DNA from: Thermoplasmatota archaeon
GTDB lineage: Archaea; Thermoplasmatota; Poseidoniia; Poseidoniales; Poseidoniaceae
Length of the DNA stretch: 53,630 bases
Assembly: GCA_036019775.1 (NCBI GenBank)
Contig: JAYXXD010000003.1
Location: 1-53,630, forward strand
Reading direction: 5' to 3'
Shown here one piece after another: positions 1 to 14,459 of this stretch; positions within the stretch are counted from its first letter, which is position 1, and each line of letters begins with the position of its first letter. The notes under the pieces are model-generated. The model was given only the letters and a program-made list of their open reading frames with translations, searched no databases and was not told the origin of the DNA. The position numbers and the translations under genes were made by a program.

Positions 1-11
1 CTTGACGATGA

Positions 12-20
12 GAATAAATA
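12..20 (+). promoter_or_regulatory. Putative TATA box of the tRNA-Tyr gene
   Basis: GAATAAATA lies ~25-30 nt upstream of the mature tRNA 5' end, typical archaeal spacing. Confidence 0.4.
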
Positions 21-43
21 GAACGAGGCGGTCGCAGGGACTA

Positions 44-145
44 CCTCACTTAGCTCAGTTGGTAGAGCACCTGACTGTAGTTGGAAAAAACAACGTCTCA
101 GCAGACATCAGGGTGTCCCCGGTTCAAGTCCGGGAGTGGGGACCA
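44..145 (+). tRNA. tRNA-Tyr(GTA) with a 26-nt canonical-position (37/38) intron and encoded CCA
   Basis: Acceptor CCTCACT(44-50)/AGTGGGG(135-141). D arm GCTC/GAGC. Anticodon stem CCTGA(70-74)/TCAGG(108-112), anticodon GTA 77-79, intron 81-106. T arm CCCGG-TTCAAGT-CCGGG. Discriminator A142, CCA 143-145. C1:G72 + A73 are archaeal Tyr identity elements. Bulge-helix-bulge: CTGT(75-78)/GCAG(101-104) with 3-nt bulges AGT and ACA. Confidence 0.97.
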
Positions 146-162
146 TACAAGGATTCTCTCAT

Positions 163-690
163 TCAATCCGATTTGTATTGGTGACAATGCAAAAAATATT
201 GCTGAATCATGTCATTCTGGGATTTATTCTCAGGTCCTATTTTTGGTATTAAGTTAGATAACTGTGAAATTGCTTCGGAAACCGAATAGTCTCCACTTCG
301 AATCAGTATACAGGCAAGAATCATACCGGTCCTGCCTATTCCTGCACTACAATGAACGACGATTCTCTTATTTTCATTTAGTTCAATGAGGATCTTCTCT
401 ACAAGAGAAATAAGATTACTTAAACTTGGGACCCCTCTGTCTTGAATTGGGAAATGGATAATCGTAAAGTTGTGGTTTTCAATATCAATCAACTTATTCT
501 CTCCAGTTTTTTCGATAAACTCGCTGATCGGATTCGTGGAGATGACGATGTCGATTTCATTATCCAGCCATGAATTGATAATTGCACCATGACTTTGCTC
601 AAAGCGACCAAACGGCATCGGACTTCTGAACAGCTTCCAATTCTGGCTGTTTGGAATGTCAGTTATTGGATCGGTTTTTCCTAGTCTCAT
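163..690 (-). CDS. Cys-dependent protein-tyrosine/dual-specificity phosphatase family protein
   Basis: Signature VVHCSAGIGRTG (HCxxGxxR), general-acid loop FPIQDRGVP, Q-loop-like PENKSQ. Confidence 0.9.
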   Translation of the reverse strand: MRLGKTDPITDIPNSQNWKLFRSPMPFGRFEQSHGAIINSWLDNEIDIVISTNPISEFIEKTGENKLIDIENHNFTIIHFPIQDRGVPSLSNLISLVEKILIELNENKRIVVHCSAGIGRTGMILACILIRSGDYSVSEAISQLSNLIPKIGPENKSQNDMIQQYFLHCHQYKSD

Positions 691-1635
691 TCAACCACTG
701 CTAATAATTTTTGAAATCCCATCTGAGAGGGATGTGCGTGCAGACCAACCAATCAGGCCTTCGATTAAACTACAATCTGCTAATCTCCAGTCAGGGTCTC
801 CAGACAAACGAATCGTGTAATTTACTTCGTAGTTTAACTTCATTTTTTTTGCAATTAGGTCTGCAAGTTCATGAATTGTACACGATTCTTCAGAACCAAT
901 GTTAACGACTGTAGGCAATTCAACCTTAGCTTGCATAAGACCTATGATGGCGCTTACACAGTCATCAATAAACAAGAACGACCTTGTTTGACTACCATCA
1001 CCATCGATGTTGATTGGTCTTGATTTTCTTATGGCATTGAAAAAGTTTGGAAAGACTCTGCCATTTCCATTGAGAGTAGTGTCCATATTTGGACCATACA
1101 CATTAAAAATTCTCATGCTACAAGAATCCAAAGATTCTCTTTTTGCGTGCATAATAAGTTCCTCTCCCATGGATTTTGAGGTGCTGTAAACACTTTTGTC
1201 AGAAAGTAATTGATGATATCCAAAACTTTTCTCGGACATTTTCTGTTGAGATATCGCTCCACAACTCCCATAAACCTCACTTGAGGATGCGTATAAGAGT
1301 CGACATGAATTCAATTTTGCGTGCTCAATCATGTTCAATGTACCAGCAGTATTGGGTAAGATTACATCAAAAACCTGCTTTTTGAATAGGCGAGGAGCCG
1401 CTACTGATGCAAGATGGAAAATGCCGTCCAATTCTTCTTCAATCTTTACTTTGCTTATACAGGTTCTGATGACTTTGACATTTGCGATATTTCGTCTTGG
1501 ATAACTTGTGACATTGTTGTCAACGACAATGATATTGTGCCCTTGGGACACTAAAGTATCAACCAAATTTCTTCCAATAAATCCCTCGCCTCCACTGACT
1601 AAATACGTTTTTGATTTTCGATTAAGCATCTCCAT
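691..1635 (-). CDS. NAD-dependent epimerase/dehydratase, UDP-glucuronate decarboxylase (UXS)-like extended SDR
   Basis: GGEGFIG, HLASVAAP, ASSSEVYG, YxxxK (YSTSK), RIFNVYGP and GDGSQTRSF match UXS-type motifs. Confidence 0.85.
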   Translation of the reverse strand: MEMLNRKSKTYLVSGGEGFIGRNLVDTLVSQGHNIIVVDNNVTSYPRRNIANVKVIRTCISKVKIEEELDGIFHLASVAAPRLFKKQVFDVILPNTAGTLNMIEHAKLNSCRLLYASSSEVYGSCGAISQQKMSEKSFGYHQLLSDKSVYSTSKSMGEELIMHAKRESLDSCSMRIFNVYGPNMDTTLNGNGRVFPNFFNAIRKSRPINIDGDGSQTRSFLFIDDCVSAIIGLMQAKVELPTVVNIGSEESCTIHELADLIAKKMKLNYEVNYTIRLSGDPDWRLADCSLIEGLIGWSARTSLSDGISKIISSG

Positions 1636-4600
1636 TTACCCCCCATAATTTGTAACCTTTTTTCCATGATGGACTCTGAAGACCTGGATCGATATCCATC
1701 ACCTTTCGTTGTGATCTTTCAAGAGGAATATCGCTTAGAAAGTGCCCGCAGAGTGCGCAGTATGTTTTCATCATGTCTAGGAATTGCCACGGGTGATCGG
1801 GGAGTTCATCAAATCCCAATCCAAAATTAAATATCCGTTCAATACCACCTGCAATGGCGCAATGATGGTAGCCATATGGAGACAAGCCGATCCCAGAGTC
1901 TTGAGTAATATAACAACCCTTGGTGAAATCTTGGTTTTTCCACTCTTCGATATCTTTTGGTGCGTAATTAAATGGTTCAAAATGCTGAGTAGCTGCTTCT
2001 CTGTCATGTTTAAACGAATTGTCGTATCTCCATTTTTTGGGTATTGCTGATAAATTCTTTATCGTTTTTCGACTGACTCCATTTGAAATAACCTTTCTTT
2101 CTGTATCAGGACTATTTTGTTCCAACCATTCTTCAATCATCATGATAATTTCCACGAAATTTGGGTGAAGTGTCGGTTCACCACCGAGGATATGGATGCT
2201 TTCCCATTGCTTACCTTTTCTCGATGAACTCTCAAGAAATTCTTGGATCATTTGAATTGGCATATGCATATTACTTGGCGCTTGCGCGCTTGATCGACTA
2301 CAACCAGCACAAGTCAAATTACAAAAATATGTAATATCAATTTCCAATTTGTTGAGGTTTGGGATGTAGTTCGTTCTTCGTTCATCTTCCAGAGAATTTG
2401 AAAACTTCCTATCATAGTTGAGGATATCAAACCCATTTGTGGATATTCCTTCAGAATTCTGTTCATTGGTGCTCAAAGCCAAATTATGGTTATCTGGTGC
2501 ATAATACGATACCTTATGTTCGATACCTAGCGGCCGGTGAACAAGGTGAGCGCGAAGGTTGATGTTCTCTCCATTAAGGGCGATTAACTCCTTACAAACC
2601 ATCTTATCAAACAAAATTTCTCTGGGATTTAGTTCGATAATTTTCGATTGATTATTTGTACAGATTTCGCTGAGATACTCTCCTATCACATCCTTTGAAA
2701 ATTCACTGAATCGCTTCCTGACAATTGTGATTTTTCCTGGATGTTCACTGATTAATTCCAATAACCATTCAAGTTTGTTTGACTTCGTTTGGTCGCAAAA
2801 TATAACCAAACCGGCATCGACATCAACTTGCTTAGCTATACTTACAACTAAACCTCTCAAAAAGTGTTGAATCGGTTTCCTTGTATGAGTGTAGAATACG
2901 AGTTTTTCCTTTCTTTCTTCATATTTCCACAAATGCTCAGATTCAACGATATCCCAATGCCCTCTTTGTTCATCTGGAATCTTTCCTTGTTCGACTAAAT
3001 CAATACATCTGTCATAGAACTCAAAATTTTTCTTTACGCTGTTCATTGGATGAATGTAGTAAGTGCTACCAAAACCTCCTCTGAGCGATTGCCAATCGCT
3101 CATGTTTTGGAATTTCTCAATCGATCTGTACCAACTTCGCTCGAATTTTTTATCGACTAGATTGTTAGGATATGGCCTTTGTTGTAGCAAACGTTTCAAA
3201 TCGAACAAACCACATCTTACTTCTGGCACGAAGCTTCCTTGATACGCATTAAAATGTGTCTCAGCGTCCTGTGGAATGTTAAATCCAACGCCAAATGTAT
3301 TTTGTAACTTGATAGCTTCATGCATCTCCGTTATGGATTTATCATCCACTGAACAATGAAAGAGAACATCGCAATCCATTTGGAAAACATATCTTGTTTG
3401 TATTTGCTCAAATCCCCATAATTGAGGAAACAGCGGAACTCCAGACTTCGTATGTGTAGAGATTGAACTGAGGCCAAACCACTCCTCCAGACAATGCATT
3501 ACGAGTCGTTTATCCTCATTTGGCGAAATAAGAATCTCATCGATCCAATTCTCTTTCTTGAGTCTCTGAGCTTCATCGAACAAACGATCTAGATTTCCGT
3601 CATCGTGTTGGCGCAAGAAGTTGGTTCGCTTCGGATCAATCAACAATACAGTCTTTTCGAAAATATCGAATCTTGTAACCTGCCGAACGATATGCTGAAC
3701 TTGATTTCTAATTAACCTGTAATCCATTGCACATGTTTTGATCAATAGAGTAGTGTTCTCGTGGTTTACCTTATCTGCTTTGATATCCCTTGCTGGTTTT
3801 CGAAAGAAACCTTGATTCAAATTGTACAATTGTACTTCACGTGAAAAGAAATCCTCAAAACCTTCAAATTTTTTCATTTGTCCTATGTTATTTCTGAAAG
3901 TTTTTGTCAATACTGAAAGCTCATGGGAGGAATAGCCTAACACGAAGGAAAGGTATAATCTCAAACACATGTCTCTGAAAAATCGAGCCTCAAATGGAAC
4001 AATTGAAGATCCTATATCAATATATGATAACGCATTTTTCTCGTCAATGTACATATTTTTCTTATTCACATTTAAACAAACAATTCGGCTTTTTATGCAG
4101 GAAGATATGAATCTGCTAATCATTTCGCGAGATACATCTTCAGGTTCATTGTTTGGTTGAAATTTTGAGGTTGCAGTCCATTGACCATCAATAGCTTCCC
4201 AGGAAACCTTGAGTATTGGAGCGTCATCAAGGGATGATAGCCAACTTATTTGCTCTTCATTGATGGTTTGTTTGTTGAATGTCTTGACAACTTTATCGCT
4301 ATGCCTGAATACCATTCCTTCAAGGCCCCAATCAATGCATTCTATCGAAGTTGAATTTGTGTTCAATGAGTTGTAAAGTAGCTGCCTTGATTCAGAATAT
4401 TTCCCCGAGAGAATGTTATTCTGAGTATTGTTGCCCTTCAGGTGATAATTTGCGTGTTTGAAACCAGTCAATATTTGCCCTTTATCTTGGTGTTTGAGTA
4501 AGAGTTTTGAAACCAACCAATGATCTTCTGCAGAATCTACCTCAGGATAATAGATTCGGAAGGAATTTCTTTTCCACAAATTACAGGATGGTAACTCTGC

Positions 4601-5152
4601 GGTCTCTTCTCCATCTGCCATTTTCTCCAATCTTGAGAGAACAAATTCATGGTTCTTGAAATCTGCAGTTACAGGGTTGTCTCGAGTCAGCTTTTCATCG
4701 TCCAGAATCAAATCATTTCCTGCTAGAGCCCATTGAATGTGCATATTTTTTATTTGATTGTGTATGTTCCTCAGTGCGAACTCATTTTGAAGAGTATCAT
4801 CAGAATCAAGCCTACATATCCACGTATCATTGGGGAAAATTTGTCTGCAAATTTCATATGCAAAATTTCTTCCTCTTGCAACGTTACATTCTGGTATTCT
4901 AGCGATGTAAATTCTACTATCTTCGATGACATAATCTGAGGTTCCATCGTCCAGAATTAACATGATACTATTCGTTTTGCTCTTCTGTTGTAAAAAGGAC
5001 TCAACAGCAGGAATCGGCCCATTAGGATGATTATGGATCAATGTTGTCACGACAACATCTACGCGGTCAGGGTCGACTATCTTTTGTGATAATGTAATAT
5101 GCTGCCCATACATGACATCTGAAAGTTCAATCAAGTCACTCATGAATTTCAC
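1622..5152 (-). CDS. Multidomain protein: GT2 + protein-kinase-like + second GT-A domain + degenerate GT2 + C-terminal radical SAM
   Basis: N-terminal GT2 (ILDDG, ARGRN, RLDSDD, AEDH). Kinase-like WGLEGMV..VVK..NVNKKN..IDIG. Second DxD domain (QMDCDV). Radical SAM CNLTCAGC at 2300-2323 with GGEPTLHP and C-terminal CALC. Confidence 0.8.
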   Translation of the reverse strand: MKFMSDLIELSDVMYGQHITLSQKIVDPDRVDVVVTTLIHNHPNGPIPAVESFLQQKSKTNSIMLILDDGTSDYVIEDSRIYIARIPECNVARGRNFAYEICRQIFPNDTWICRLDSDDTLQNEFALRNIHNQIKNMHIQWALAGNDLILDDEKLTRDNPVTADFKNHEFVLSRLEKMADGEETAELPSCNLWKRNSFRIYYPEVDSAEDHWLVSKLLLKHQDKGQILTGFKHANYHLKGNNTQNNILSGKYSESRQLLYNSLNTNSTSIECIDWGLEGMVFRHSDKVVKTFNKQTINEEQISWLSSLDDAPILKVSWEAIDGQWTATSKFQPNNEPEDVSREMISRFISSCIKSRIVCLNVNKKNMYIDEKNALSYIDIGSSIVPFEARFFRDMCLRLYLSFVLGYSSHELSVLTKTFRNNIGQMKKFEGFEDFFSREVQLYNLNQGFFRKPARDIKADKVNHENTTLLIKTCAMDYRLIRNQVQHIVRQVTRFDIFEKTVLLIDPKRTNFLRQHDDGNLDRLFDEAQRLKKENWIDEILISPNEDKRLVMHCLEEWFGLSSISTHTKSGVPLFPQLWGFEQIQTRYVFQMDCDVLFHCSVDDKSITEMHEAIKLQNTFGVGFNIPQDAETHFNAYQGSFVPEVRCGLFDLKRLLQQRPYPNNLVDKKFERSWYRSIEKFQNMSDWQSLRGGFGSTYYIHPMNSVKKNFEFYDRCIDLVEQGKIPDEQRGHWDIVESEHLWKYEERKEKLVFYTHTRKPIQHFLRGLVVSIAKQVDVDAGLVIFCDQTKSNKLEWLLELISEHPGKITIVRKRFSEFSKDVIGEYLSEICTNNQSKIIELNPREILFDKMVCKELIALNGENINLRAHLVHRPLGIEHKVSYYAPDNHNLALSTNEQNSEGISTNGFDILNYDRKFSNSLEDERRTNYIPNLNKLEIDITYFCNLTCAGCSRSSAQAPSNMHMPIQMIQEFLESSSRKGKQWESIHILGGEPTLHPNFVEIIMMIEEWLEQNSPDTERKVISNGVSRKTIKNLSAIPKKWRYDNSFKHDREAATQHFEPFNYAPKDIEEWKNQDFTKGCYITQDSGIGLSPYGYHHCAIAGGIERIFNFGLGFDELPDHPWQFLDMMKTYCALCGHFLSDIPLERSQRKVMDIDPGLQSPSWKKGYKLWGVNGDA

Positions 5153-6818
5153 TCCATTTTTGGTATGCTTCGGTCCATTCTTGAGATTTGTTTTTGGGGT
5201 TATCGTTTATCCAGGGTGGTTTGAAAACCCTTGATTTGAATCTTCCACACATCCTACAGAACTCTTCGAGTAAGTCCAGCATATTATCATCAATGTGTGG
5301 AATCTCTTTTCGGCCCAAATCTAAACCAAGTATCCGATCGATACCCCCAGCAAGGGTGCAAGGGTAATACCCATTTGGCGTTAATCCAATTCCGCAATCT
5401 TCAATATTTGAGCACCCATTGGAGAAATCCAACTTCTTGTATCTTTTATCATCAACTGGTGCCATGTTGAATGCGTAAAATCCCTCTTGATGTGCTGATG
5501 TCTTTGAAGTGTTTTCTACGTGAAAAAAGGGAGGTATTCGAATAATATTTCTTTTTACTTTACGCCCAAAACCATTCGTTGTGACCTCAAGCCTCGTCCG
5601 TGGATACACCGATTTATACTTGGAAAACATGTACAAGATTTCCTCAAAATCGGGGTGTAACGTAGGTTCCCCGCCAAGCAGTCGAATGCGCTTCCAGTAA
5701 ATTTTCCGTTTAATCGAATCTTCGATGAAGTTAGAAATTTGATCTAAATGTATATGCATTTTTTCTGGAGCTTGTCGACATGACCTATTGCAACCATAGC
5801 AATTCAGATTGCATTCATAGGTTAAATCGATCTCAATTTTATCCCTTGACCGAGTGAATTGTCGGCCAAAGATTTTTGTCAATGATCTCCGATTTCTAAA
5901 TCGCCACCATGCTTGCATGAGATTCCATCTTCGGAGTGCGAATCCTTGTCCAAATCTTGTTTTGGGTGAAGGTGGTAATGCGGGAAATCCTGGCTCGTCT
6001 TTAGTTGTATCACTTATAGAAAACATATCTGCATCTACACCAAAAAATTTGGCTCTGGAAATAAAATTCTCCTCGTCTTTTTTGTTCATTAAATGCTTGT
6101 GCTTTACATAGAATTGCAGTAGACCAGTCTGCTTTCCTTTCGATTCTGACAGGGTTAACGATTCTCTTTCTCTGTCGAGGAAATAATTTACACTCACATT
6201 TTCTGTGAAAGCAATGCGTACGCCATTCATTGAGAGGATTCTAACTGCCAAATCTCGATCGTGAGTACAAAACAAGGATTCGTCAAAACATCCAGCGTTG
6301 TTGAGCAATTCTGTCTTCATAAATGTATTCGAACCTTGCCAACCGGGATTTGTGGAAAAAACGTCGCGCAACGTTATTTTGCTTGGTATTCTTTCTTCAA
6401 TTGACTCTCCGTCAAGAAGTGTTCGGATCCCTCCTATAACTACATCGTAACCTTTCATGAAATTGCTGTTCTCTTGGAGATGATGATCCAACCATTCATC
6501 ATCATCATCCAAAATTGCAGTCCATGAATTAGGGTAGTTTTTAGCGATGTAATCTAGACCATAATTCCAAGTCCCAGCTGCACTTGGGAATCCCTTATTT
6601 TTCAAATAAATCCCATCGGGAAAGAGATCAACAAAATTTTCCTTGTTTTTTTCTGATATTGATTTATCATCTGAATTGTCTACAAGTAAGACAACATCAG
6701 GACTGAGTGTTTGACGCTTGACAGAGGGTAGTGCTCTTGATTTTAGCAGTAAGGGGCGATTGTATGTTGTAATCAAAGCAACAATAACCTCATTATTCAT
6801 TTGCATGCCTCCAATCAA
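5136..6818 (-). CDS. GT2 glycosyltransferase fused to C-terminal radical SAM domain
   Basis: GT2 motifs ITTYNR, LLVDNSDD, AAGTWNYG, ILDDDD, FDESL..THDRD. Radical SAM CNLNCYGC (5790-5813), GGEPTLHP, TNG, C-terminal CRMC. The true start may be the ATG at 6800. Confidence 0.85.
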   Translation of the reverse strand: MIGGMQMNNEVIVALITTYNRPLLLKSRALPSVKRQTLSPDVVLLVDNSDDKSISEKNKENFVDLFPDGIYLKNKGFPSAAGTWNYGLDYIAKNYPNSWTAILDDDDEWLDHHLQENSNFMKGYDVVIGGIRTLLDGESIEERIPSKITLRDVFSTNPGWQGSNTFMKTELLNNAGCFDESLFCTHDRDLAVRILSMNGVRIAFTENVSVNYFLDRERESLTLSESKGKQTGLLQFYVKHKHLMNKKDEENFISRAKFFGVDADMFSISDTTKDEPGFPALPPSPKTRFGQGFALRRWNLMQAWWRFRNRRSLTKIFGRQFTRSRDKIEIDLTYECNLNCYGCNRSCRQAPEKMHIHLDQISNFIEDSIKRKIYWKRIRLLGGEPTLHPDFEEILYMFSKYKSVYPRTRLEVTTNGFGRKVKRNIIRIPPFFHVENTSKTSAHQEGFYAFNMAPVDDKRYKKLDFSNGCSNIEDCGIGLTPNGYYPCTLAGGIDRILGLDLGRKEIPHIDDNMLDLLEEFCRMCGRFKSRVFKPPWINDNPKNKSQEWTEAYQKWSEIHE

Positions 6819-8058
6819 TTACCTCAATTATTCCAGACTCTTGGACTTCTCCAATTAAATCACAAGGATCGGTCAAACAAGTATTCAATCCGTTATTAGT
6901 ACTGTAAAACCAGTACTCGTTCCAATTGTATTTGATGTGATCATGGTAGGTGGTTGAGCAATCACTACCCCCCTCATAGTTCGAGTAGCATTGATGACTT
7001 GAAGTGGTGTAAACTCCCGTTGAATCAAACACAATCTCGCTTACGAACACAACATCTCCTTCGCTAAGTGTCACATTTCCATCTAAAAATTTCGTTTCAC
7101 CAACAAGTTGAGACGTGCTCTCCCATCCAATAGTACCAGCCCCAATAACTGCGAGAATTACGGTTCCTGCAATCAACCCATATGTTATGACAGACATGAA
7201 TAGACTCGCTAAAATTGAGAAAGCGGAAGATGGGAAGGAGTTTTTTTTCTGCTTGAGAGCGGCGGCTAATTTTTCAGCATGATGGTGATGCCTTCGAACA
7301 TTATCTTCCAATCCGCGGGATTTCAGAATATGAAGCAACGAATTTCGTTCCGTATCGAATTTTGCTAAAGCGAAGGTATCTTTTGGTACACATTTTCCAT
7401 CAAAACCTCCCAACCCAGGCTCAAGATGCGCCATGTTTCCAATTCTTCGATCAACCCAAATCGAATTCATAACTTTCCGAGCTCGAGCATTGTGAAGGAT
7501 ACAAAGCCTTTCGATTTCACACGTGAATGTAACCTTTGTTGCAATGTATGCATTGTGTGCGAGTTTGGCAATTTCAGCCTCGATACATGTCATGATGATT
7601 CTTGGTACAGCATCATTCACCCAGGTGAACAAATCGAGAACTGATTTTGCAATTTCACTCGGCTCGGTAATGACTAACCTATCTGGATTTTCAAACCATT
7701 CAAGAGCATTTTTTTCTCGAAGATATTCGGGCATATAACAAATTTTTTGTGATGGGAATTCTTTATGCAAAGCTTCCATCGTATAGGGTTGTAATGTACT
7801 TTTCACGACGATTGTTCCATCGTATCCTGTTCGATTTAATCGATTAATAACCTCGTGAACGATACTCACGTCTAAACAATCATCATGGCCCGCATTCGTT
7901 GGAACGCAGACAAAGGCAAAATCAGAACTCAAAACGTCTTCCCAGTCACCGCGACCATCAATGTCATACCCGACGCATGAATGGTGCTTTGACATCCCGC
8001 TCAGGACGGAAGAGCCAACTGAACCCAAGCCAACTACAGCGATTTTCTTCATTCGCAT
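6793..8058 (-). CDS. UDP-glucose/GDP-mannose dehydrogenase-family protein lacking the C-terminal domain, fused to TM segment(s) and a small extracytoplasmic domain
   Basis: GLGSVG, YDID, CVPT, KST, PEYLRE, AKLAHN and catalytic GKCVPKD. After ~aa 275 a hydrophobic stretch (ILASLFMSVITYGLIAGTVILAVIGAG) precedes a Ser/Thr/Tyr/Cys-rich tail. Confidence 0.85.
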   Translation of the reverse strand: MRMKKIAVVGLGSVGSSVLSGMSKHHSCVGYDIDGRGDWEDVLSSDFAFVCVPTNAGHDDCLDVSIVHEVINRLNRTGYDGTIVVKSTLQPYTMEALHKEFPSQKICYMPEYLREKNALEWFENPDRLVITEPSEIAKSVLDLFTWVNDAVPRIIMTCIEAEIAKLAHNAYIATKVTFTCEIERLCILHNARARKVMNSIWVDRRIGNMAHLEPGLGGFDGKCVPKDTFALAKFDTERNSLLHILKSRGLEDNVRRHHHHAEKLAAALKQKKNSFPSSAFSILASLFMSVITYGLIAGTVILAVIGAGTIGWESTSQLVGETKFLDGNVTLSEGDVVFVSEIVFDSTGVYTTSSHQCYSNYEGGSDCSTTYHDHIKYNWNEYWFYSTNNGLNTCLTDPCDLIGEVQESGIIEVIDWRHANE

Positions 8059-8558
8059 TCCTCCAGTTCATCGTAAATTGAGAAACTGTCTACCTCTCTT
8101 TTAAGATCACTGCTCAAACACTGGTTGTTTCTCGCAAGAACGTGGACGTTTTTCCCAAGACATTTCAATTCCCGAACGAGGGGAACAAATCCACCATCGC
8201 CTGTGACCAAAAGAAAAGTAGAGATGTGAGGATAGTTGATTGCAATCTTTAGAGCTTCAACGGTAAGGTGAATGTCTGCTGCATTTTTCAAAAATGAAGT
8301 TTTTGTGTTTTTCGACCTATCTTCAAAAATTTTCTTAACGTTAGTAAAGCGAGGCTCGATACCAAATCTGTGCATCACACTGACTAAACTCCCATTTCGA
8401 TCTGAAAATCCAGCCAAGGCTAATGTAACACTCTTCCTACCTAGAGTCTCGATGTAGTTGTTTATCTTAGCAAAATCAATTTTATTTTTTCTGCCCTTTC
8501 GAGTATCAAGGTTTTCCCAATCGATTAATGTGGCTACAGATGCACAGATTGCTTGCAT
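8049..8558 (-). CDS. NYN (LabA/DUF88, PIN-fold) domain protein
   Basis: IDWEN, KNAADIHL, LLVTGDGGF..LV..LK..GKNVHV and SSDLKREVDSF follow the NYN pattern. Confidence 0.85.
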   Translation of the reverse strand: MQAICASVATLIDWENLDTRKGRKNKIDFAKINNYIETLGRKSVTLALAGFSDRNGSLVSVMHRFGIEPRFTNVKKIFEDRSKNTKTSFLKNAADIHLTVEALKIAINYPHISTFLLVTGDGGFVPLVRELKCLGKNVHVLARNNQCLSSDLKREVDSFSIYDELEECE

Positions 8559-8583
8559 GAATTCAATTAGGAGAGGGATGTAT

Positions 8584-8686
8584 ATAGTTAAATTTATTGT
8601 AAATTAATCATAATTTAACGATTATATGTGTGCTTTAGTGAAAAAAACTAGATAATTTAACGATATATTGATAATATCGTTTAATT
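8584..8686. promoter_or_regulatory. Divergent promoter region with repeated operator-like half-sites
   Basis: ATAATTTAACGAT repeated at 8610-8622 and 8652-8664. Palindrome AATTtAACGATAT-N7-ATATCGTTtAATT at 8654-8686. Inverted near-copy ATAGTTAAATT at 8584-8594. Confidence 0.65.
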
Positions 8687-8696
8687 TAGTCAAATC

Positions 8697-9467
8697 ATGA
8701 AGACATTGGTGATTCCCCTATCGAGGACTGCCGTGGAGAAAGTTGACCAGCTTTTACAGCAATTCAGTTGTCCGAGAATTGTACTTATCCACACTGCAAA
8801 AATCGGTAGTACCGTTGATACGAATCTCAGACAACTTCAATCCTTTTTGTCCTCTAGAAACAAAAATCTTGAAATTATGGTCCAGCCACTAAGTTGTTCT
8901 GATTATCCATTTGCACTAGGGGAATCATTTTCTCGCTGGATTACTAGCGATGTTGAAAAAAACAGTACTCAATCATTTGATGTTGTCATCTCAGAGGATC
9001 TAGCATTGGGTTATTTCGTTGGATTAACATCACTTTCTCTTGAATCCATTCAATTACGATGTCATTTGTTGACAATAACAAATGATTTTACAAAACATGA
9101 TACGCATTTATTTGATCCTGAAAAAACGTTCAGAATTGCACAATTGCCACTCTTTGATGACATTAACAGAGCAAGAGATTTTTTCAGAGGAAAAAGTGGA
9201 ACATCTCGTATATTTTCCTATGTTCAGGCTTGGCATGATGAAGAGCGAAAGAGGTACAATGAGGATTCTTGGTTCAAGAGTAAAGACATACAAGAGTATG
9301 CAAAAAGAAATCGACAAGACCTAACACAGTCATTGATCACGAAACATCTTTCGATCATGGTTGACATGGGAGAATCGTTTCGAGTTATCGAACGAAATAA
9401 AGAAAACCAAACACTCTACAGGATAACGTCTGTTGGCAGGGCTTACAGTTGGCATAAGAAAAATTAG
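8697..9467 (+). CDS. Putative transcription regulator: N-terminal Rossmann-like (CARF/Csa3/DUF6293-like) domain + C-terminal winged HTH
   Basis: Beta-alpha N-terminus (KTLVIPL..RIVLIHT..FDVVIS), LP linker, wHTH (SKDIQ..LTQSLITKHLSIMVDMG..YRITSVGR). Divergent from the island operon. Confidence 0.6.
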   Translation: MKTLVIPLSRTAVEKVDQLLQQFSCPRIVLIHTAKIGSTVDTNLRQLQSFLSSRNKNLEIMVQPLSCSDYPFALGESFSRWITSDVEKNSTQSFDVVISEDLALGYFVGLTSLSLESIQLRCHLLTITNDFTKHDTHLFDPEKTFRIAQLPLFDDINRARDFFRGKSGTSRIFSYVQAWHDEERKRYNEDSWFKSKDIQEYAKRNRQDLTQSLITKHLSIMVDMGESFRVIERNKENQTLYRITSVGRAYSWHKKN

Positions 9468-9523
9468 AAATTCCTGATGGTAGTTCACGTTAATTTCAAA
9501 CAACATTGTTTCCTGGGCTGTTC

Positions 9524-10807
9524 ATGCACATTGTGATGGTCTCCGGAGAGTACCCTCCACGATGGGGTGGAATGGGTTCTGTCGTTTACAACCTTGCTGG
9601 CCACATGGCCCAACGCGGACACAAAGTGACCGTTATCACTCGAAAACACAAGCAAATGCCACCGACCCAAACAGGTGTTGAAGTCATTCCAGTTCGATGG
9701 GCTCCTCTACCGATGTCATTTACCAAGTCCTTTGGTAAGCACGCCATTAAGGCTCTCAATCAACTGAAGCGACGTCGCTCGATCGATGTTGTCAGTGTCC
9801 ATCTTCCCCTTGTTTCTTGGACTCGCAAACAGTTTCGGTACATCGAAGAAAACATTGCTCCAGTCGTGAGCACACTCCATGGTTCTTGGATTGGTGAGCG
9901 AGAAGGTGTTCGTCGAGCTGCATTGAATCGAGAGGCGGCAACGTGGAGAAATCCGAACGACCTCGCTATTCGCCTCACGGCTGGCTGGTATGCTCGTTAT
10001 GAGCGTGCAGGCGTCCTCGAATCAACATGCTGTGTAGCAGTCTCTCGCTCAACCAAAAAAGAGTTTCATGAATTCTACAAGATACCTGATGATTCGGATA
10101 TCGAAGTTGTACACAATGGATGCGATGCTCGCGTCTTCAGGCCTCCGAATAAAGACCATGAAAAGGAACAACTCGCACATGAACGAATTCGAAAAGAGTA
10201 CGGTTGTGCAGATGAAGAAGCTCTCAATTACGATCCAAAAACAAAGACGCCAATGATTCTTGCAGTTGGTCGCCTTGTCGCACGGAAAGGATATGTCTCA
10301 CTCTTGCGAGCATTACCATTGATTCTCAAAGAACATGAGAATGCGAAACTCGTCATTGTCGGTCGAGGGCACATGAAGAAAAAACTCCTGAAGATAGCAG
10401 AAGAATTAGGCGTTAGTCAATCGTTATTCATCAAGAGTGCAATGTCGTTTGAAGATCTTGCTCAACATTATCGTTCTGCAGATCTGGTCGTGTTCCCATC
10501 CTATTACGAAGGACAAGGACTCATCCCACTCGAAGCTCTTGCATCAGGAACGCCTGTTGTCACTGTTGACCAGGCCCCATTAACAGAAATGATTGATGAT
10601 ACGGTTGGAGGTCTCTTCGATCGTGGAGATTTCGTAGGACTTGCAAAAGCAGTTTGTGATGAACTCAATGGACACGTTCAGCGAATGAAGAAAGCAAAGG
10701 AAGGTCGAAAGCGCGTCCTCGAAAAATTCACCCTTGAAGGACAAGCAGAATCGTATGAGGACGTTTTCCTTCGTTCTGTTCAGAAACGACGTTGGCGCGA
10801 CTCTTGA
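9524..10807 (+). CDS. Glycosyltransferase family 4 (GT-B)
   Basis: EYPPRWGG, HNG.D, VGRLVARKG, PSYYEGQGLIPLEALASGTPVV (Ex7E). Start placed at ATG 9524. Confidence 0.92.
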   Translation: MHIVMVSGEYPPRWGGMGSVVYNLAGHMAQRGHKVTVITRKHKQMPPTQTGVEVIPVRWAPLPMSFTKSFGKHAIKALNQLKRRRSIDVVSVHLPLVSWTRKQFRYIEENIAPVVSTLHGSWIGEREGVRRAALNREAATWRNPNDLAIRLTAGWYARYERAGVLESTCCVAVSRSTKKEFHEFYKIPDDSDIEVVHNGCDARVFRPPNKDHEKEQLAHERIRKEYGCADEEALNYDPKTKTPMILAVGRLVARKGYVSLLRALPLILKEHENAKLVIVGRGHMKKKLLKIAEELGVSQSLFIKSAMSFEDLAQHYRSADLVVFPSYYEGQGLIPLEALASGTPVVTVDQAPLTEMIDDTVGGLFDRGDFVGLAKAVCDELNGHVQRMKKAKEGRKRVLEKFTLEGQAESYEDVFLRSVQKRRWRDS

Positions 10808-10816
10808 GTTGGAACT

Positions 10817-11287
10817 ATGCGTACTCGCCTCATCATCATGCGTCACGCCAAAAGCAGCTGGCCGGATGCAAATTTGGATGACCACGATCGTCCATTGAAC
10901 AAGCGTGGTCGCAGAGATGCACCCCGAATCGCACAGGAATTGCTCAATCGTGATTGGATTCCTGACCGAATTCGAGTGAGTTCTTCCAAACGGACCATTG
11001 AAACTCTTGAACTGATGGAACCAATCTCACTTAATTCAAGTATTGATGTTGAACCAAGCCTCTACCATTCAAACATAAGCACATTATTGCAAGCTGTTGA
11101 ACAAATTGAAGAAGGAAAGACAACAATGTTATTGAGTCATAATCCAGGAAGTGAGATTCTTGTTCATCAATTGTCAAATCGCCTTGAAGTGATGCCAACT
11201 GCAGCTGTTGCACTCTTTGAAAAAGAACAAAACGATTGGGCACTGATTGATGTGTTGCGACCAAAAGAATTGGAATATCTGAATTGA
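10817..11287 (+). CDS. sixA: SixA-type histidine phosphatase
   Basis: MRHAKSSW, DHDRPLNKRG, SS.KRT, SHNPG, MPTAA. Confidence 0.9.
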   Translation: MRTRLIIMRHAKSSWPDANLDDHDRPLNKRGRRDAPRIAQELLNRDWIPDRIRVSSSKRTIETLELMEPISLNSSIDVEPSLYHSNISTLLQAVEQIEEGKTTMLLSHNPGSEILVHQLSNRLEVMPTAAVALFEKEQNDWALIDVLRPKELEYLN

Positions 11288-11288
11288 C

Positions 11289-11374
11289 TACAAGGGTACC
11301 GTTGATAAGGGTCCTCTGAGAGCCCTTGTAAACAGGTGGATTATACACAAGGGTGTTTAGAATAACCCCTTGTG
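11289..11374. repeat. Two adjacent inverted repeats built from ACAAGGG/CCCTTGT
   Basis: TACAAGGG(11289-11296)...CCCTTGTA(11323-11330) and CACAAGGG(11346-11353)-N13-CCCTTGTG(11367-11374). Confidence 0.75.
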
Positions 11375-11522
11375 AACAAAAGTAAACTATTCATGCACTT
11401 GATTATTTTTCATTTCTTAAAATTGTAGTAAATGCTCCACATTCAAATAGTAATCCGTGTGTGATACATGGACTTTTGAAAAACATAGGATGGTTTATTT
11501 TACACGATTCGGACGGAATAGC

Positions 11523-13523: not shown

Positions 13524-13575
13524 TTTTATTTCCTCTCCAAAATACACCTTCACCGAAGGAGGGATAGTATACAGG

Positions 13576-14415
13576 ATGATGAGAGCGATTAACAATGGAG
13601 AAAAATTCCTCATGTTGGAGGGTAATTTTGATCATTCCTTTTTCTCAAAATTACTGAGAGAACATCGTATAAGAGGGGTCACATTACTCAACCTTCATGA
13701 AGAAGACATAAATGTCGAATCGAATAAAGATTACATTCTTGGTTTCGTAAATGAGTATGCGGATGATTATTCCAACCTCTATGCATTTGTTGATGCAGAT
13801 TACGACTTTGCTGTAGATTCGATGAATCAACCTGGAGACTCTATTCTTCCATACTCGAAGAATATTTTCGACACCTCTCCGGCTACTGATCTAGATACAA
13901 AATTAATTTCATATCACAATGTCGAAAATTACCTACAATCAATCGGATGCAGGGATTCTGAGCACATCAGAATCTTGGCTATTTCGTCTATGCTTGGTTG
14001 TTTGAGATATCACAAACACAGCATGGAGAGATCAAATCATGGTGTCGTGTACGCAAATTTCTCGGGACTGTTGAAGAATTTGACTTCAGTTACTGAAAGA
14101 GTTTCATTCGAAAGTCTCGTAGGTGCTTTGAAGAAAGAATCAAAATCAATGGGATCATTAACAAAAAAATATTTTGAAAAAATGATGAAAAAAGGGGTAT
14201 ATGAGGACACATTAGCGAATTTTCAGAGGAAAGACCTCGCTCAATGCTCATACATTAGAGGGCATGACATTATGGAGGTTATTTGTGCAGTAAAAGGATG
14301 GAAAAAAATCCACAAGAATAAATTGGAGAAGGAATTAATAAAATCAAACTTAAAAAATTCCGATTTTGAAAGTATCGTGTTTAATTTAAATCAGAGTCAA
14401 GATTTAGATGCATGA
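13576..14415 (+). CDS. DUF4435/TOPRIM-like protein (PARIS AriB-like)
   Basis: LEGNFD (EGxxD), FVDADYD (DxD), DLDT and C-terminal RGHD. Directly downstream of the ATPase. The frame is open back to a CTG at 13513 overlapping the ATPase stop. Confidence 0.75.
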   Translation: MMRAINNGEKFLMLEGNFDHSFFSKLLREHRIRGVTLLNLHEEDINVESNKDYILGFVNEYADDYSNLYAFVDADYDFAVDSMNQPGDSILPYSKNIFDTSPATDLDTKLISYHNVENYLQSIGCRDSEHIRILAISSMLGCLRYHKHSMERSNHGVVYANFSGLLKNLTSVTERVSFESLVGALKKESKSMGSLTKKYFEKMMKKGVYEDTLANFQRKDLAQCSYIRGHDIMEVICAVKGWKKIHKNKLEKELIKSNLKNSDFESIVFNLNQSQDLDA

Positions 14416-14459
14416 AAAAAGGTGTATACAACGGATCCCCTCGAATACGTATACGGATA

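What the first reader, a model, noticed from the sequence alone, without database searches (positions are those of the whole stretch)
163..9467. Candidate undescribed system: regulated tRNA-linked operon combining NYN nuclease, UDP-sugar synthesis, two GT2-radical SAM fusions and a kinase/phosphatase pair
Seen: six minus-strand genes overlap or abut with no gaps (NYN > UGDH-TM > GT2-rSAM > GT2/kinase/GT/GT/rSAM > UXS-like SDR > DSP phosphatase). A divergent wHTH regulator faces them, all in an AT-rich block directly 3' of tRNA-Tyr. Established: UGDH + UXS make UDP-GlcA/UDP-xylose; GT2s transfer NDP-sugars; radical SAM enzymes do radical chemistry on sugars/nucleotides (e.g. viperin, nucleoside modification); NYN/PIN domains are RNases; tRNA loci are island hotspots. 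Inference: a self-contained pathway makes a uronic acid/pentose donor, transfers and radically remodels it, and is switched by (de)phosphorylation. There is no flippase, polymerase or oligosaccharyltransferase, and a nuclease and a ligand-sensing regulator are present. This argues against an ordinary surface-glycan locus and for an inducible conflict/anti-viral or nucleic-acid/small-molecule modification system. I do not recognise this combination as a named system.
Basis: partly seen in the sequence, partly recalled or inferred. Interest (0 to 1): 0.9.

Follow-up and report, generated by a model that had tools for sequence, protein, structure and literature searches.

The report
Mobile glycosyltransferase–radical SAM gene cassette
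A 9.3-kb block of seven genes has been inserted beside a tRNA gene in a marine archaeon; its three-part sugar-transferase/radical-SAM core also turns up, rarely and patchily, in many bacteria, often among anti-virus and mobile genes, and matches no named system I could find.

Summary
Six overlapping or abutting minus-strand genes and a divergent regulator-like gene lie directly 3' of an intron-bearing tRNA-Tyr.

- **Insertion.** The block (window 146-9483) is a discrete insertion. One congener has the empty site, with 71 bp between the tRNA and GT4. Another carries a different 3.8-kb cargo there. A third carries the cassette at another locus.
- **Core.** The conserved core is a GT2, a compact radical SAM with four extra invariant Cys, and a ~1000-aa protein (GT2-like, kinase-like, DxD domain, GT2). 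It recurs in 19 of 80 related radical SAM loci across archaea and several bacterial phyla, sometimes fused into one polypeptide.
- **Frequency.** It is rare: 5 of 401 Poseidoniales genomes and 8 of 301 Vibrionaceae genomes.
- **Location.** No core protein has a predicted membrane helix.
- **Neighbours.** Bacterial copies sit among Fic, HipA, GmrSD, UvrD-like, Cas, Tn7 and IS genes. No PADLOC system model fits.

Best reading (0.45): a mobile, cytoplasmic sugar-building and radical-modifying cassette with a role in virus-host conflict. A surface-glycan variation cassette is the main rival.

The parts
44..145 (+). tRNA-Tyr(GTA) with a 26-nt intron after position 37; its encoded CCA end (143-145) is the left edge of the insertion
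   Evidence: Rfam RF00005, 55.3 bits. ARAGORN -i gives tRNA-Tyr [44,145] (gta) i(38,26). Homology to G007 and G006 stops at base 145.
146..9483 (.). The inserted cassette as a whole (9.3 kb, low GC)
   Evidence: G007:C17 has the empty site, with 71 bp between the tRNA and the GT4 start. Window homology covers 1-145 and 9484-9642. G006:C27 has a different 3.8-kb cargo at the same place. GC profile.
163..690 (-). Dual-specificity/PTP-type phosphatase (175 aa) with the CX5R motif HCSAGIGR intact; archaeal accessory gene
   Evidence: Pfam Tc-R-P 58.8 bits and DSPc 48.9 bits, above cut-off. Sequence. Homologues sit beside the cassette in L011 and L012.
691..1635 (-). Extended SDR, NAD-dependent sugar-nucleotide epimerase/dehydratase/decarboxylase type (314 aa); subfamily unassigned
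   Evidence: Pfam Epimerase 4.4e-44. All NCBIfam equivalogs fall far below cut-off. Conserved in L009 (56%) and L011 (51%). Related SDRs occur in the Opitutales and Myxococcota cassettes.
1622..5152 (-). 1176-aa multidomain protein (B + second radical SAM)
   Evidence: 49% identical to the G020 homologue over 1155 aa. 1386 relatives at E<=0.001 in the representative library.
4313..5152 (-). B1: divergent GT2-like GT-A domain (residues 1-280)
   Evidence: The family profile hits TarP (6h1j) at 8.9e-14, chondroitin synthase at 1.5e-9 and SpsA. The single sequence gives only Pfam GT2 at E 0.061.
3713..4312 (-). B2: protein-kinase-like domain (residues 281-480) with a Gly-rich loop and Lys, 'N-I/V-K-x-x-N' and 'D-I-G'; Asn stands where the catalytic Asp is expected
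   Evidence: Alignment columns. The profile gives only weak PDB hits to CDKL5/2 and Aurora kinases (E 0.013-0.17). No Pfam family at E<=1.
2873..3712 (-). B3: best-conserved domain of unknown family (residues 481-760), with near-invariant LQxDxD and RGG..(Y/F)(I/V)HPxNxxK motifs; probably a GT-A-like transferase
   Evidence: Near-invariant columns in A2. 34-44% identical to the bacterial homologues (49-53% to the other archaeal copies). No Pfam family and no PDB hit.
2393..2872 (-). B4: GT2 domain (residues 761-920)
   Evidence: Profile hits to TagF N-domain (5.9e-8) and heparosan synthase B (1.3e-7). The equivalent region of homologue P0128 is Pfam GT2 at 1.1e-22.
1625..2353 (-). Second radical SAM domain (residues 934-1176), paralogue of the one in the GT2-rSAM protein
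   Evidence: Pfam Radical_SAM 9e-09. 39% identical to the other copy. The two archaeal copies are sister clades.
5136..6818 (-). GT2-radical SAM fusion (560 aa): GT2 residues 1-300 (5919-6818), radical SAM residues 317-560 (5139-5870) with CX3CX2C plus four further invariant Cys
   Evidence: Pfam GT2 34.4 bits and Radical_SAM 38.5 bits. Invariant C37, C41, C44, C170, C188, C222, C225 in A1. 169 relatives found.
6793..8058 (-). UGDH-like dehydrogenase (421 aa): NAD-binding and central domains with the catalytic-Cys motif GGFxGKCVPKD, then one membrane helix (about residues 279-297) and a variable Cys-containing tail in place of the UDP-binding domain
   Evidence: Pfam PF03721 and PF00984 only. 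Hydrophobic segment in W, L009 and L011. Alignment A5.
8049..8558 (-). NYN (LabA-like) domain protein (169 aa); archaeal accessory gene
   Evidence: Pfam NYN 73.9 bits. Homologues in L009 (53%) and L011 (46%). The first Asp is Gly in L011.
8584..8686 (.). Four copies of an 11-nt motif (AATTTAACGAT, at most 1 mismatch) in two inverted pairs within the divergent intergenic region; candidate operator sites
   Evidence: All 4 matches in the 53.6-kb window lie here, against 1.45 expected in the whole window. Repeat map.
8697..9467 (+). Divergent 256-aa protein specific to this cassette; possible C-terminal winged helix, N-terminal domain unknown
   Evidence: No Pfam family at E<=0.01. Only weak winged-helix/HTH hints in the L011 homologue (E 0.012-0.21). 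Only 6 clusters in 5.8 billion proteins. Conserved in L009 and L011.

Best explanation
This is a horizontally mobile, self-contained cassette that builds a sugar-based product in the cytoplasm and modifies it by radical chemistry. Its most likely role is in virus-host conflict.

**Core (shown by conservation and fusions).** Three parts recur together: a GT2 glycosyltransferase; a compact radical SAM enzyme with a second, probably auxiliary, 4-Cys site; and a ~1000-aa protein carrying three GT-A-type domains around a kinase-like domain.

**Inferred mechanism.**
1. The four transferase domains assemble an oligosaccharide or glycoconjugate on a soluble or universal acceptor.
2. The radical SAM domain is fused to a GT2 here and to an SDR elsewhere. 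It abstracts a hydrogen from a sugar to rearrange, epimerise, dehydrate or decarboxylate it.
3. The kinase-like domain binds a nucleotide. It either phosphorylates a sugar or only scaffolds the complex.

**Archaeal additions.** The archaeal variant adds a membrane-anchored UGDH-like dehydrogenase, a UXS/ArnA-like SDR, a Cys-based phosphatase, an NYN protein and its own divergently transcribed regulator with operator-like repeats.

**Acquisition.** The cassette was gained by replacing a 71-bp spacer at a hypervariable hotspot, without an integrase.
For: **Shown.**
- Discrete insertion with an empty site and an alternative cargo in congeners.
- At least five different continuations after tRNA base 145 or 146 in contigs of three studies.
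- Cassette contigs at least 99% alike in three further studies.
- The same cassette type lies at another locus in G020, next to genes that are syntenic with G000:C42.
- Rare and patchy: 5 of 401 Poseidoniales genomes and 8 of 301 Vibrionaceae genomes.
- Core co-occurrence in 19 of 80 related radical SAM loci, from archaea, Pseudomonadota, Myxococcota, Planctomycetota and Verrucomicrobiota.
- Single-polypeptide fusions of GT2, B and rSAM, e.g. P0124 at 1513 aa. SDR-rSAM fusion P0101. SDR-GT2 fusion in L054.
- No predicted membrane helix in any core protein of 19 loci.

**Context.**
- Of 10 hand-picked bacterial neighbours, 7 had Pfam families: two UvrD-like helicases, an MZB domain, TnsD/TniQ, HipA, GmrSD and a methyltransferase.
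- Among 125 flanking ORFs of 16 loci: SoFic x3, UvrD/GajB-like x3, HipA x2, integrase x2, Cse1, CT1975, IS66, KAP, HmaC and mad2. In all, 194 PADLOC families matched at 1e-10.
- The control was 125 flanking ORFs of 11 radical SAM loci without the module. It gave 52 PADLOC families, and its commonest Pfam families were GT2 (4 members) and, with 2 members each, polysaccharide pyruvyl transferase beside housekeeping families (hydantoinase, periplasmic binding proteins, short-chain dehydrogenases, a permease); Bac_transf and Epimerase appeared once each.
- The Salinivibrio copy is a 4-gene unit beside IS110 and ISAs1.
- In the window, an AriA/PtuA-like ATPase lies in the next variable slot.
Against: - No antiviral activity, product or acceptor is shown. 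Context enrichment is rough: family counts are inflated by redundant PADLOC models, 4 very long ORFs were dropped, and L017 and L018 are close kin.
- The control flanks also hold some defence genes (pAgo/SIR2, methyltransferases, mad2/3).
- The alternative cargo at the same hotspot in G006 and the unknown genes of the second slot gave no convincing PADLOC match (one E=4.4e-4 hit among 10 proteins).
- Relatives of the radical SAM outside the module sit with GT4, GT2, pyruvyl-transferase and Bac_transf genes. Those are ordinary polysaccharide loci.
- The best structural relatives of the GT domains are wall teichoic acid and capsule enzymes.
- Low-GC, glycosyltransferase-rich replacement islands are typical surface-glycan islands in marine microbes (recalled, not from a call).
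- The kinase-like domain may be inactive.
Confidence: 0.45

Rival explanations
1. Surface-glycan variation cassette ('glycotype' island). The transferases decorate or build a lipid-linked or polymer-bound glycan, which the host's own flippase or exporter moves outward. This changes the cell surface, and so incidentally the virus receptors. The radical SAM and SDR enzymes make an unusual sugar for that glycan.
For: - GT domains resemble TarP, chondroitin and heparosan synthases and TagF.
- Radical SAM relatives outside the module lie with GT4, GT2, pyruvyl-transferase and Bac_transf genes.
- UGDH-like and SDR genes accompany the core in archaea, Opitutales and Myxococcota.
- The insert is low in GC and sits beside a conserved GT4 gene.
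- The archaeal UGDH-like protein is membrane-anchored with an outward variable tail.
- Accessory enzymes differ between lineages, as expected for glycan diversification.
Against: - There is no flippase, polymerase, initiating transferase, exporter or oligosaccharyltransferase in any of the 19 module loci examined.
- No core protein has a membrane helix.
- The same core works in archaea and in several Gram-negative phyla whose envelopes and lipid carriers differ.
- Bacterial flanks are dominated by intracellular defence and mobile genes, not polysaccharide genes.
- The alternative cargo at the same hotspot is not glycan-related.
Confidence: 0.3
2. Biosynthesis of a soluble sugar-derived small molecule, such as a nucleoside-sugar or glycoside metabolite, signal or solute. 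This would be analogous to peptidyl-nucleoside or tunicamycin-type pathways that combine SDR, glycosyltransferase, radical SAM and phosphatase steps, with no dedicated antiviral role.
For: - All core proteins are soluble.
- A radical SAM is fused to sugar enzymes.
- A phosphatase and an SDR are present in the archaeal set.
- There is a distant hit of the radical SAM profile to cytosylglucuronate decarboxylase, at E 0.25 only.
- The cassette is self-contained and mobile, like small biosynthetic clusters.
Against: - Four or more transferase domains are many for a small glycoside.
- There is no exporter or self-resistance gene.
- Similarity to the known nucleoside-antibiotic radical SAMs is at noise level.
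- No paper found describes such a cluster.
Confidence: 0.17
3. No functional unit: unrelated accessory genes that happen to lie together in a variable island.
For: NYN, the regulator and the phosphatase are found only in the archaeal copies.
Against: - The gene set is conserved, with the operon order of the minus-strand genes kept apart from the phosphatase gene, at 33-59% identity in four archaeal contigs.
- The reading frames overlap.
- The core is conserved across phyla and is fused into single proteins.
Confidence: 0.03

Closest known systems
Prokaryotic viperins (pVip), radical SAM antiviral enzymes
   Same: A radical SAM enzyme carried on a rare, mobile element. Weak hits to the pVip models over the CX3CX2C core.
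   Different: - Only the first ~80-90 model positions match (23-31 bits, against an NCBIfam cut-off of 180).
- This family has four extra invariant Cys.
- It is fused to or paired with glycosyltransferases.
- There is no evidence for nucleotide substrates.
Twitch/SPASM-type radical SAM enzymes acting on sugars or lipids (BtrN, MoaA, tetraether synthase Tes, YydG, CteB)
   Same: These are the best PDB relatives of the family profile: Tes 7.5e-8, YydG 1.7e-5, MoaA 0.04, BtrN 0.07. All have a radical SAM core followed by extra Cys.
   Different: - Similarity is confined to the N-terminal core.
- No SPASM Pfam hit in the window's proteins.
- The domain is short (~240 aa).
- No curated NCBIfam family reaches its cut-off.
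Multidomain GT2 enzymes of cell-envelope polymers: TarP (wall teichoic acid GlcNAc transferase), K4CP chondroitin polymerase, heparosan synthase, TagF
   Same: The B1 and B4 domains match these by profile at 8.9e-14 to 1.3e-7. Several GT-A domains sit in one polypeptide.
   Different: - A kinase-like domain and an unassigned DxD domain are inserted.
- A radical SAM partner is obligatory.
- No export or anchoring genes are present.
- The cassette occurs in archaea as well as bacteria.
Sugar kinases built into glycan assembly (WbdD terminator kinase, WaaP/Kdo kinases, POMK); recalled from the literature, plus one Atlas lead
   Same: A kinase-fold domain embedded among glycosyltransferase domains. 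An Atlas cluster of GT2/LPS-kinase (Kdo/WaaP) fusions scored 0.92 with a bacterial homologue.
   Different: No Pfam kinase family matches. The consensus has Asn where the catalytic Asp is expected, so activity is doubtful.
Replacement-type flexible genomic islands at tRNA-flanking hotspots in marine microbes (recalled)
   Same: Low GC, no integrase or att repeats, different cargo in each strain, and assemblies that break there.
   Different: The cargo here is a cassette shared with distant bacteria, not a lineage-specific glycan locus. The alternative cargo in G006 has no glycan genes.

Membership tests
Prokaryotic viperin (pVip) | Full-length match to a viperin model at its curated score | tested here: not met
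   NF038283 scores 23.0 and 28.3 bits against a cut-off of 180, covering model positions 4-92 of 281. PADLOC pVip scores 30.5 and 31.5 bits over positions 2-78 of 257.
Radical SAM superfamily | CX3CX2C cluster motif and a Pfam PF04055 score above cut-off | tested here: met
   36.2 and 38.5 bits against 29.5. C37, C41 and C44 are invariant in 14 sequences.
Radical SAM with auxiliary Fe-S cluster (twitch/SPASM) | Additional conserved Cys after the core; a SPASM/twitch model hit | tested here: inconclusive
   Four further invariant Cys: C170, C188, C222, C225. No PF13186 hit in the window's proteins. N_Twi_rSAM scores 24-26 bits against a cut-off of 170. Cluster binding cannot be tested here.
UDP-glucose 6-dehydrogenase | NAD-binding and central domains with the catalytic Cys | tested here: met
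   PF03721 at 4.4e-12 and PF00984 at 4.5e-16. GGFxGKCxPKD with invariant C223.
UDP-glucose 6-dehydrogenase | C-terminal UDP-binding domain; subfamily score | tested here: not met
   No C-terminal domain hit. It is replaced by a membrane helix and a variable tail in W, L009 and L011. TIGR03026 scores 145.6 bits against a cut-off of 189.8.
UDP-xylose synthase / ArnA-type decarboxylating SDR | Equivalog-level match | tested here: not met
   NF008872 scores 75.1 bits against a cut-off of 294. Heptose epimerase and dTDP-glucose dehydratase models score higher. The fold itself is met: PF01370 at 4.4e-44.
GT2 glycosyltransferase | Pfam PF00535 above cut-off, or a profile match to solved GT2 structures | tested here: met
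   The 560-aa protein scores 34.4 bits against 23.3. B1 alone scores only 13.7 bits, but the family profile hits TarP at 8.9e-14. The B4 region hits heparosan synthase at 1.3e-7.
Protein-kinase-like fold, active kinase | Gly-rich loop with Lys, catalytic Asp in the catalytic loop, metal-binding Asp (motif definitions recalled) | tested here: inconclusive
   The loop, Lys and 'DIG' are present. The consensus 'N-I-K-x-x-N' has Asn at the expected Asp. No Pfam kinase hit at E<=1. PDB profile hits reach only E 0.013-0.17.
Dual-specificity / PTP phosphatase | Pfam score above cut-off and the CX5R motif | tested here: met
   DSPc scores 48.9 bits against 33.5 and Tc-R-P 58.8 against 27. HCSAGIGR is in the translation.
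NYN nuclease | Domain match; conserved acidic catalytic residues (recalled) | tested here: inconclusive
   PF01936 scores 73.9 bits against 24.2. The first Asp is Gly in L011, and the second motif reads GDGGF with a single Asp.
Any defence system in PADLOC-DB 2.0.0 | System-specific protein models match the cassette's genes | tested here: not met
   Only partial pVip hits and a weak NYN hit. The other four cassette proteins match nothing at E<=0.01.
Integrase-mediated tRNA-integrating island | Integrase gene and a direct repeat of the tRNA 3' end at the far boundary | tested here: not met
   No integrase among the cassette's genes. No such repeat in 1-9600. An empty site does exist.
Standard N-glycan / EPS / O-antigen locus | Flippase, polymerase, initiating transferase, exporter or oligosaccharyltransferase in the cluster | tested here: not met
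   None by Pfam. No multi-pass membrane protein is predicted in 19 module loci.

The most novel reading that the evidence does not exclude
The GT2 + auxiliary-cluster radical SAM + (GT2/kinase-like/DxD/GT2) module is a new class of anti-virus defence system shared by bacteria and archaea. It would act inside the cell in one of two ways: by making a radically modified sugar-nucleotide or glycosylated nucleotide that poisons viral replication, or by glycosylating an invader's nucleic acid or proteins. In the archaeal version a membrane-anchored dehydrogenase with a fast-evolving outer tail, an NYN protein and a dedicated regulator would couple it to infection sensing.
Probability: 0.3. Interest if true: 0.9.

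Novelty: new variant of a known kind. Interest (0 to 1): 0.65.

Why it matters
**If the cassette is a conflict system.** It would add glycosylation plus radical chemistry to the known modes of prokaryotic immunity. It would also be one of the few systems shared between marine Group II archaea, which are uncultured and whose virus defences are almost unknown, and bacteria that can be handled in the laboratory.

**In any case.**
- It defines a widespread, uncharacterised radical SAM family. In one genome scan 323 stretches encoded a relative. The family has a second conserved Cys site and is wired to sugar enzymes.
- It defines a conserved ~280-aa DxD domain with no family assignment.
- It gives a compact 4-gene bacterial version that is directly testable.
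- It documents a precise insertion hotspot between tRNA-Tyr and a GT4 gene in this archaeal genus.

Tried and rejected
- Structure prediction was not accepted and was declared switched off. No fold evidence exists for B3, c2, the regulator or the radical SAM, and fold search was never used.
- The Atlas does not hold the window's protein. A stored bacterial homologue gave only generic GT2 clusters, one GT2/LPS-kinase cluster and one viral GT2 cluster. I treat these as leads only.

**Paper searches.** I saw search listings and abstract starts only and read no paper.
- 0 papers.
- nothing on this gene set.
- the PDB code 7WZV gave only unrelated hits.
- Supplements are closed and were not consulted.

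**Boundary and regulator checks.**
- No att-type repeats at the insert's ends.
- A PDB profile search with the regulator found nothing.
- Pfam at E<=1 gave only winged-helix hints.

**Phage and virus collections.**
- The phage collection has no match to the B protein.
- IMG/VR holds 172 radical SAM relatives. The best 80 (at most 42% identity for full-length matches; one partial match 49%) have no A-GT2 or B domain at 1e-4. I therefore dropped the idea that the module is virus-borne.

**Other negatives.**
- PADLOC on the alternative cargo in G006, on three unknown ORFs of G408's second slot and on two unknown genes of the window's second slot: one hit at E=4.4e-4 among 10 proteins.
- Expression: no RNA holder is listed. 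Run X11 is labelled metatranscriptomic but flagged as probably DNA, so I draw no conclusion.
- Depth ratios between the tRNA and the cassette were not used, because the tool says depth is not a share of cells.

**Ideas rejected.**
- I considered that the GT4 gene belongs to the unit. It is 90-97% identical in congeners that lack the cassette, so I rejected this.
- I considered a UGDH + UXS donor pathway as fact and downgraded it (see membership tests).

**Limits of individual analyses.**
- The c2 protein's N-terminal 'GNG...RFN' motif recalls nonulosonic-acid transferases. That comes from memory only, and Pfam found nothing.
- The radical SAM tree is a FastTree with many weakly supported forks. 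A slower IQ-TREE run returned no answer.
- For some searches, four very long ORFs (L012:3583-7626, L028:2063-8431, L028:14989-18711, L042:10625-13855) were left out to fit the 50,000-residue limit.
- The control set is the first 125 of 315 eligible ORFs, taken in locus order.

Full report
**1. What is there.**

Between 163 and 8558 lie six minus-strand reading frames that abut or overlap by 0-26 nt. A plus-strand frame at 8697-9467 faces them across 138 bp. Pfam gives the following:
- a DSP/PTP phosphatase (163-690);
- an extended SDR of the sugar-nucleotide epimerase/dehydratase type (691-1635);
- a 1176-aa protein in which only a C-terminal radical SAM domain is recognised (1622-5152);
- a GT2-radical SAM fusion (5136-6818);
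- a protein with only the N-terminal and central domains of UDP-glucose/GDP-mannose dehydrogenases (6793-8058);
- an NYN protein (8049-8558).

The divergent 256-aa protein has no family.

Default ARAGORN found no tRNA. Rfam does find one at 44-142. GC is 0.37-0.42 here, against 0.44-0.50 beyond 16 kb.

The names of close homologues (Poseidoniales, Poseidoniaceae, Thalassarchaeaceae) place the genome in marine Group II archaea.

**2. It is one inserted block.**

- In congener G007, the same tRNA (99% over bases 1-145) is followed after 71 bp by the start of the GT4 gene. In the window that gene begins at 9506. Homology resumes at window base 9484.
- In G006, the tRNA and GT4 (97% amino-acid identity) are separated by a different 3.8-kb stretch with five ORFs. 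These have no Pfam or PADLOC family.
- The GT4 gene is 90-97% identical in congeners without the cassette. It is a core gene, not part of the unit.

The insert is therefore 146-9483. There is no integrase, and no repeat of the tRNA end at the far boundary. The spacer was evidently replaced through the conserved flanks.

Evidence from public metagenomes:
- Contigs at least 99% alike from three further studies cover the cassette. One bridges 116-930 and one bridges 7313-9555.
- In the same data, at least five different sequences continue after base 145 or 146. Further loose ends lie at 9522, 10807 and around 11300.

Together these mark two hypervariable slots, one on each side of GT4. In five of the six relatives fetched (the sixth, G408, carries the conserved GT4 gene 7.7 kb upstream), contigs break 1.6-5.5 kb upstream of the next conserved gene.

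In G020 the same cassette type (34-56% identity) lies at another locus. There it sits beside genes that are syntenic with G000 contig C42, where no cassette follows.

The B protein was found in 5 of 401 Poseidoniales genomes, and in none of the 67 high-quality genomes among them.

**3. Anatomy of the large protein and the core.**

A full HMMER search found 1386 relatives of the 1176-aa protein. An alignment of 35 of them (A2), searched as a profile against the PDB, shows five regions:
- **B1** is a GT2-like domain. It hits TarP at 8.9e-14 and chondroitin synthase at 1.5e-9.
- **B2** is kinase-like, but the hits are weak (CDKL5/2 and Aurora, E 0.013-0.17). The alignment shows a Gly-rich loop with Lys, 'N-I/V-K-x-x-N' and 'D-I-G'. 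Asn stands where protein kinases have the catalytic Asp; that mapping is by eye, from recalled motifs.
- **B3** is the best-conserved region (residues 481-760). It has near-invariant LQxDxD and RGG..YIHPxN..K motifs and no Pfam or PDB relative.
- **B4** is a GT2 domain. It hits TagF N-domain and heparosan synthase at about 1e-7, and the equivalent region of homologue P0128 is Pfam GT2 at 1.1e-22.
- **The second radical SAM** follows at the C-terminus.

The radical SAM domains belong to a compact family (~240 aa). Seven Cys are invariant across 14 sequences: CX3CX2C plus C170, C188, C222 and C225. The best solved relatives match the N-terminal core only: Tes at 7.5e-8, YydG, MoaA and BtrN. Cytosylglucuronate decarboxylase reaches only E 0.25. 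The viperin models match only their first ~80-90 positions and score far below cut-off.

**4. The core recurs across domains.**

A pattern scan of one genome per species found 323 stretches encoding a relative of the radical SAM; the best 80 loci were kept. In 19 of these 80, tblastn also finds the A-type GT2 and/or the B domains next to it. The loci come from:
- three archaeal contigs;
- Marinobacter, an Enterobacterales MAG, Methylovulum, Vibrio hannami, Photobacterium lipolyticum and Acidocella;
- Myxococcus and other Myxococcota;
- Phycisphaerales and other Planctomycetota;
- an Opitutales MAG.

The bacterial form is GT2 (~270 aa), radical SAM (~300 aa) and B (~1000 aa). In five loci there is also a ~250-aa protein without a family, which I call c2. 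Two loci have tandem radical SAM genes.

The Opitutales locus adds a UGDH, an SDR-GT2 fusion and a second SDR. This shows that dehydrogenase and SDR accessories are not unique to archaea.

Fusion proteins join the parts in one polypeptide:
- GT2, B and radical SAM in P0124 at 1513 aa, and probably in other ~1500-aa homologues whose B region starts near residue 300 (these were not scanned against Pfam);
- SDR and radical SAM in P0101.

On a FastTree of 120 radical SAM segments, 25 of 27 module-linked rows fall in one 38-row group (support 86). The two archaeal paralogues are sisters. The 30 GT4-linked Desulfobacterales rows form a separate clade, and viral rows lie outside. Support is modest.

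NYN, the regulator and the phosphatase were found only in the archaeal copies. The regulator family has just 6 clusters in 5.8 billion proteins.

**5. Where the product is made.**

A hydropathy scan of all core and accessory proteins of 19 loci gave no true membrane helix in any GT2, radical SAM, B or c2 protein. The four further segments it flagged lie in nucleotide-binding loops, the phosphatase active-site loop or the kinase-like domain (my reading).

The exception is the archaeal UGDH-like protein. In three of the four archaeal copies, the dehydrogenase core (catalytic Cys motif invariant) is followed by one helix and a poorly conserved Cys-containing tail. These replace the UDP-binding domain. 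The fourth copy comes from a contig full of ambiguous bases.

**6. Neighbourhoods.**

Of ten hand-picked neighbours in five bacterial loci, seven had Pfam families:
- two UvrD-like helicases, one with a Zn ribbon;
- an MZB-domain protein;
- TnsD/TniQ;
- HipA;
- GmrSD;
- a methyltransferase.

A scan of 125 flanking ORFs (at least 140 aa, within 7 kb) from 16 module loci gave UvrD x3, Fic x3, HipA x2, integrase x2, Cse1, CT1975, IS66, QueC, KAP and DUF3686 by Pfam. By PADLOC it gave SoFic x3 (8.5e-121), GajB-like x3, mad2 x2, HmaC and others, with 194 families at E<=1e-10.

The control was 125 flanking ORFs from 11 radical SAM loci without the module. It gave 52 PADLOC families, including one pAgo/SIR2 pair and methyltransferases. 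Its commonest Pfam families were GT2 (4 members) and, with 2 members each, polysaccharide pyruvyl transferase beside hydantoinase, periplasmic binding-protein, short-chain dehydrogenase and permease families; Bac_transf, GDP-mannose dehydratase and epimerase families appeared once each.

The contrast is real but rough. PADLOC families are redundant, two module loci are close kin, and four long ORFs were dropped.

Other context:
- In Salinivibrio kushneri the four genes lie between IS110/ISAs1 transposases and housekeeping genes. They are annotated only as glycosyltransferase, hypothetical protein and radical SAM protein.
- The B protein is in 8 of 301 Vibrionaceae genomes.
- It was not found in the phage collection.
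- In the window, the slot after GT4 holds a SixA-like phosphatase and an AriA/PtuA-like ATPase (8.7e-25). An ORF with a faint DUF3226 hit follows.

**7. Regulation.**

The 138-bp divergent region holds four copies of AATTTAACGAT (at most 1 mismatch), arranged as two inverted pairs at 8584-8686. These are the only matches in the 53.6-kb window, where 1.45 are expected. The motif was derived from this region, so two of the four copies are not independent. They are plausible operators for the cassette-specific protein. That protein's C-terminus shows only faint winged-helix similarity.

**8. Reading.**

Shown:
- a discrete, mobile, rare cassette;
- a conserved three-part core, confirmed by gene fusions;
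- soluble core proteins;
- bacterial copies enriched in defence and mobile surroundings;
- no match to any PADLOC 2.0.0 system.

Inferred: four GT-A-type domains assemble a sugar-based product, the radical SAM remodels a sugar, and the kinase-like domain binds a nucleotide. The archaeal accessories would supply or trim sugars and regulate the operon.

I favour a conflict-related, cytoplasmic function (0.45). The same soluble core operates in archaea and in Gram-negative phyla with different envelopes and brings no export genes. Its neighbours are intracellular defence genes rather than polysaccharide genes.

The main rival (0.30) is a surface-glycan variation cassette that uses host export. 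It is supported by the envelope-polymer relatives of the GT domains, by the polysaccharide context of sister radical SAM clades, and by the island's character. A soluble metabolite pathway (0.17) remains open.

**9. Novelty.**

I found no named family, PADLOC system or paper describing this combination. The basis is the paper searches (listings only), NCBIfam and the RefSeq product names. The parts are of known kinds, but the architecture and its distribution appear undescribed. I rate it a new variant of a known kind, with a 0.3 chance that it is a categorically new defence mechanism.

Noticed in passing
window 11457-14415: A 688-aa AAA_15/AAA_21 ATPase with strong PADLOC AriA/PtuA-type hits (8.7e-25). 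It is followed by a 279-aa ORF with a faint DUF3226 hit (E 0.0086) and no PADLOC hit. This may be a two-gene ATPase-plus-partner defence pair in the second variable slot.
   Followed up: partly
window 10808-15400: A second hypervariable slot lies between the conserved GT4 and a conserved SpoU-type methylase (15406-16110). Its content differs in each relative. G022 has a 584-aa TPR protein. G408 has 7.7 kb with an NT5C-like nucleotidase and two unknown proteins of more than 800 aa. Metagenome contigs diverge at 10807 and around 11300.
   Followed up: partly
window 10817-11287: A SixA-like histidine phosphatase lies just after GT4. A distant 1963-aa relative of the B3/B4 region (P0232) carries a His_Phos_1 domain at its C-terminus. 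I did not pursue a possible functional link.
   Followed up: no
L194 (G006:C27) 1567-5097: The alternative cargo at the same tRNA-Tyr/GT4 site is five co-oriented ORFs of 247, 148, 179, 449 and 136 aa. None matches any Pfam or PADLOC family.
   Followed up: partly
L014, L019, L022, L023, L035; L196 16855-17625: A ~250-aa protein (c2) accompanies the bacterial cassette. It has invariant G-x-G, FN, PS-G, HNWL-ER and NWW-YD motifs and no Pfam family. Its N-terminal pattern recalls nonulosonic-acid transferases, from memory only.
   Followed up: partly
L097-L129 (IMG/VR contigs): Virus-labelled contigs carry more distant members of this radical SAM family (26-34% identity). They are often tandem pairs and sometimes lie near SDR or UGDH-like genes. 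None has the GT2/B module.
   Followed up: partly
proteins P0193, P0200, P0232 and similar (~1700-1960 aa): The B3+B4 region also occurs at the C-terminal end of very large proteins that have an N-terminal GT2 and a central methyltransferase domain. I did not examine their genomic context.
   Followed up: no
window 44-145: The tool's default ARAGORN run misses this intron-bearing archaeal tRNA. Rfam and ARAGORN -i both find it.
   Followed up: yes
L019 and L205 (G414:C89, G608:C28): Two bacterial B-protein homologues are each interrupted by a single in-frame TAA. They may be decaying copies or sequencing errors.
   Followed up: no
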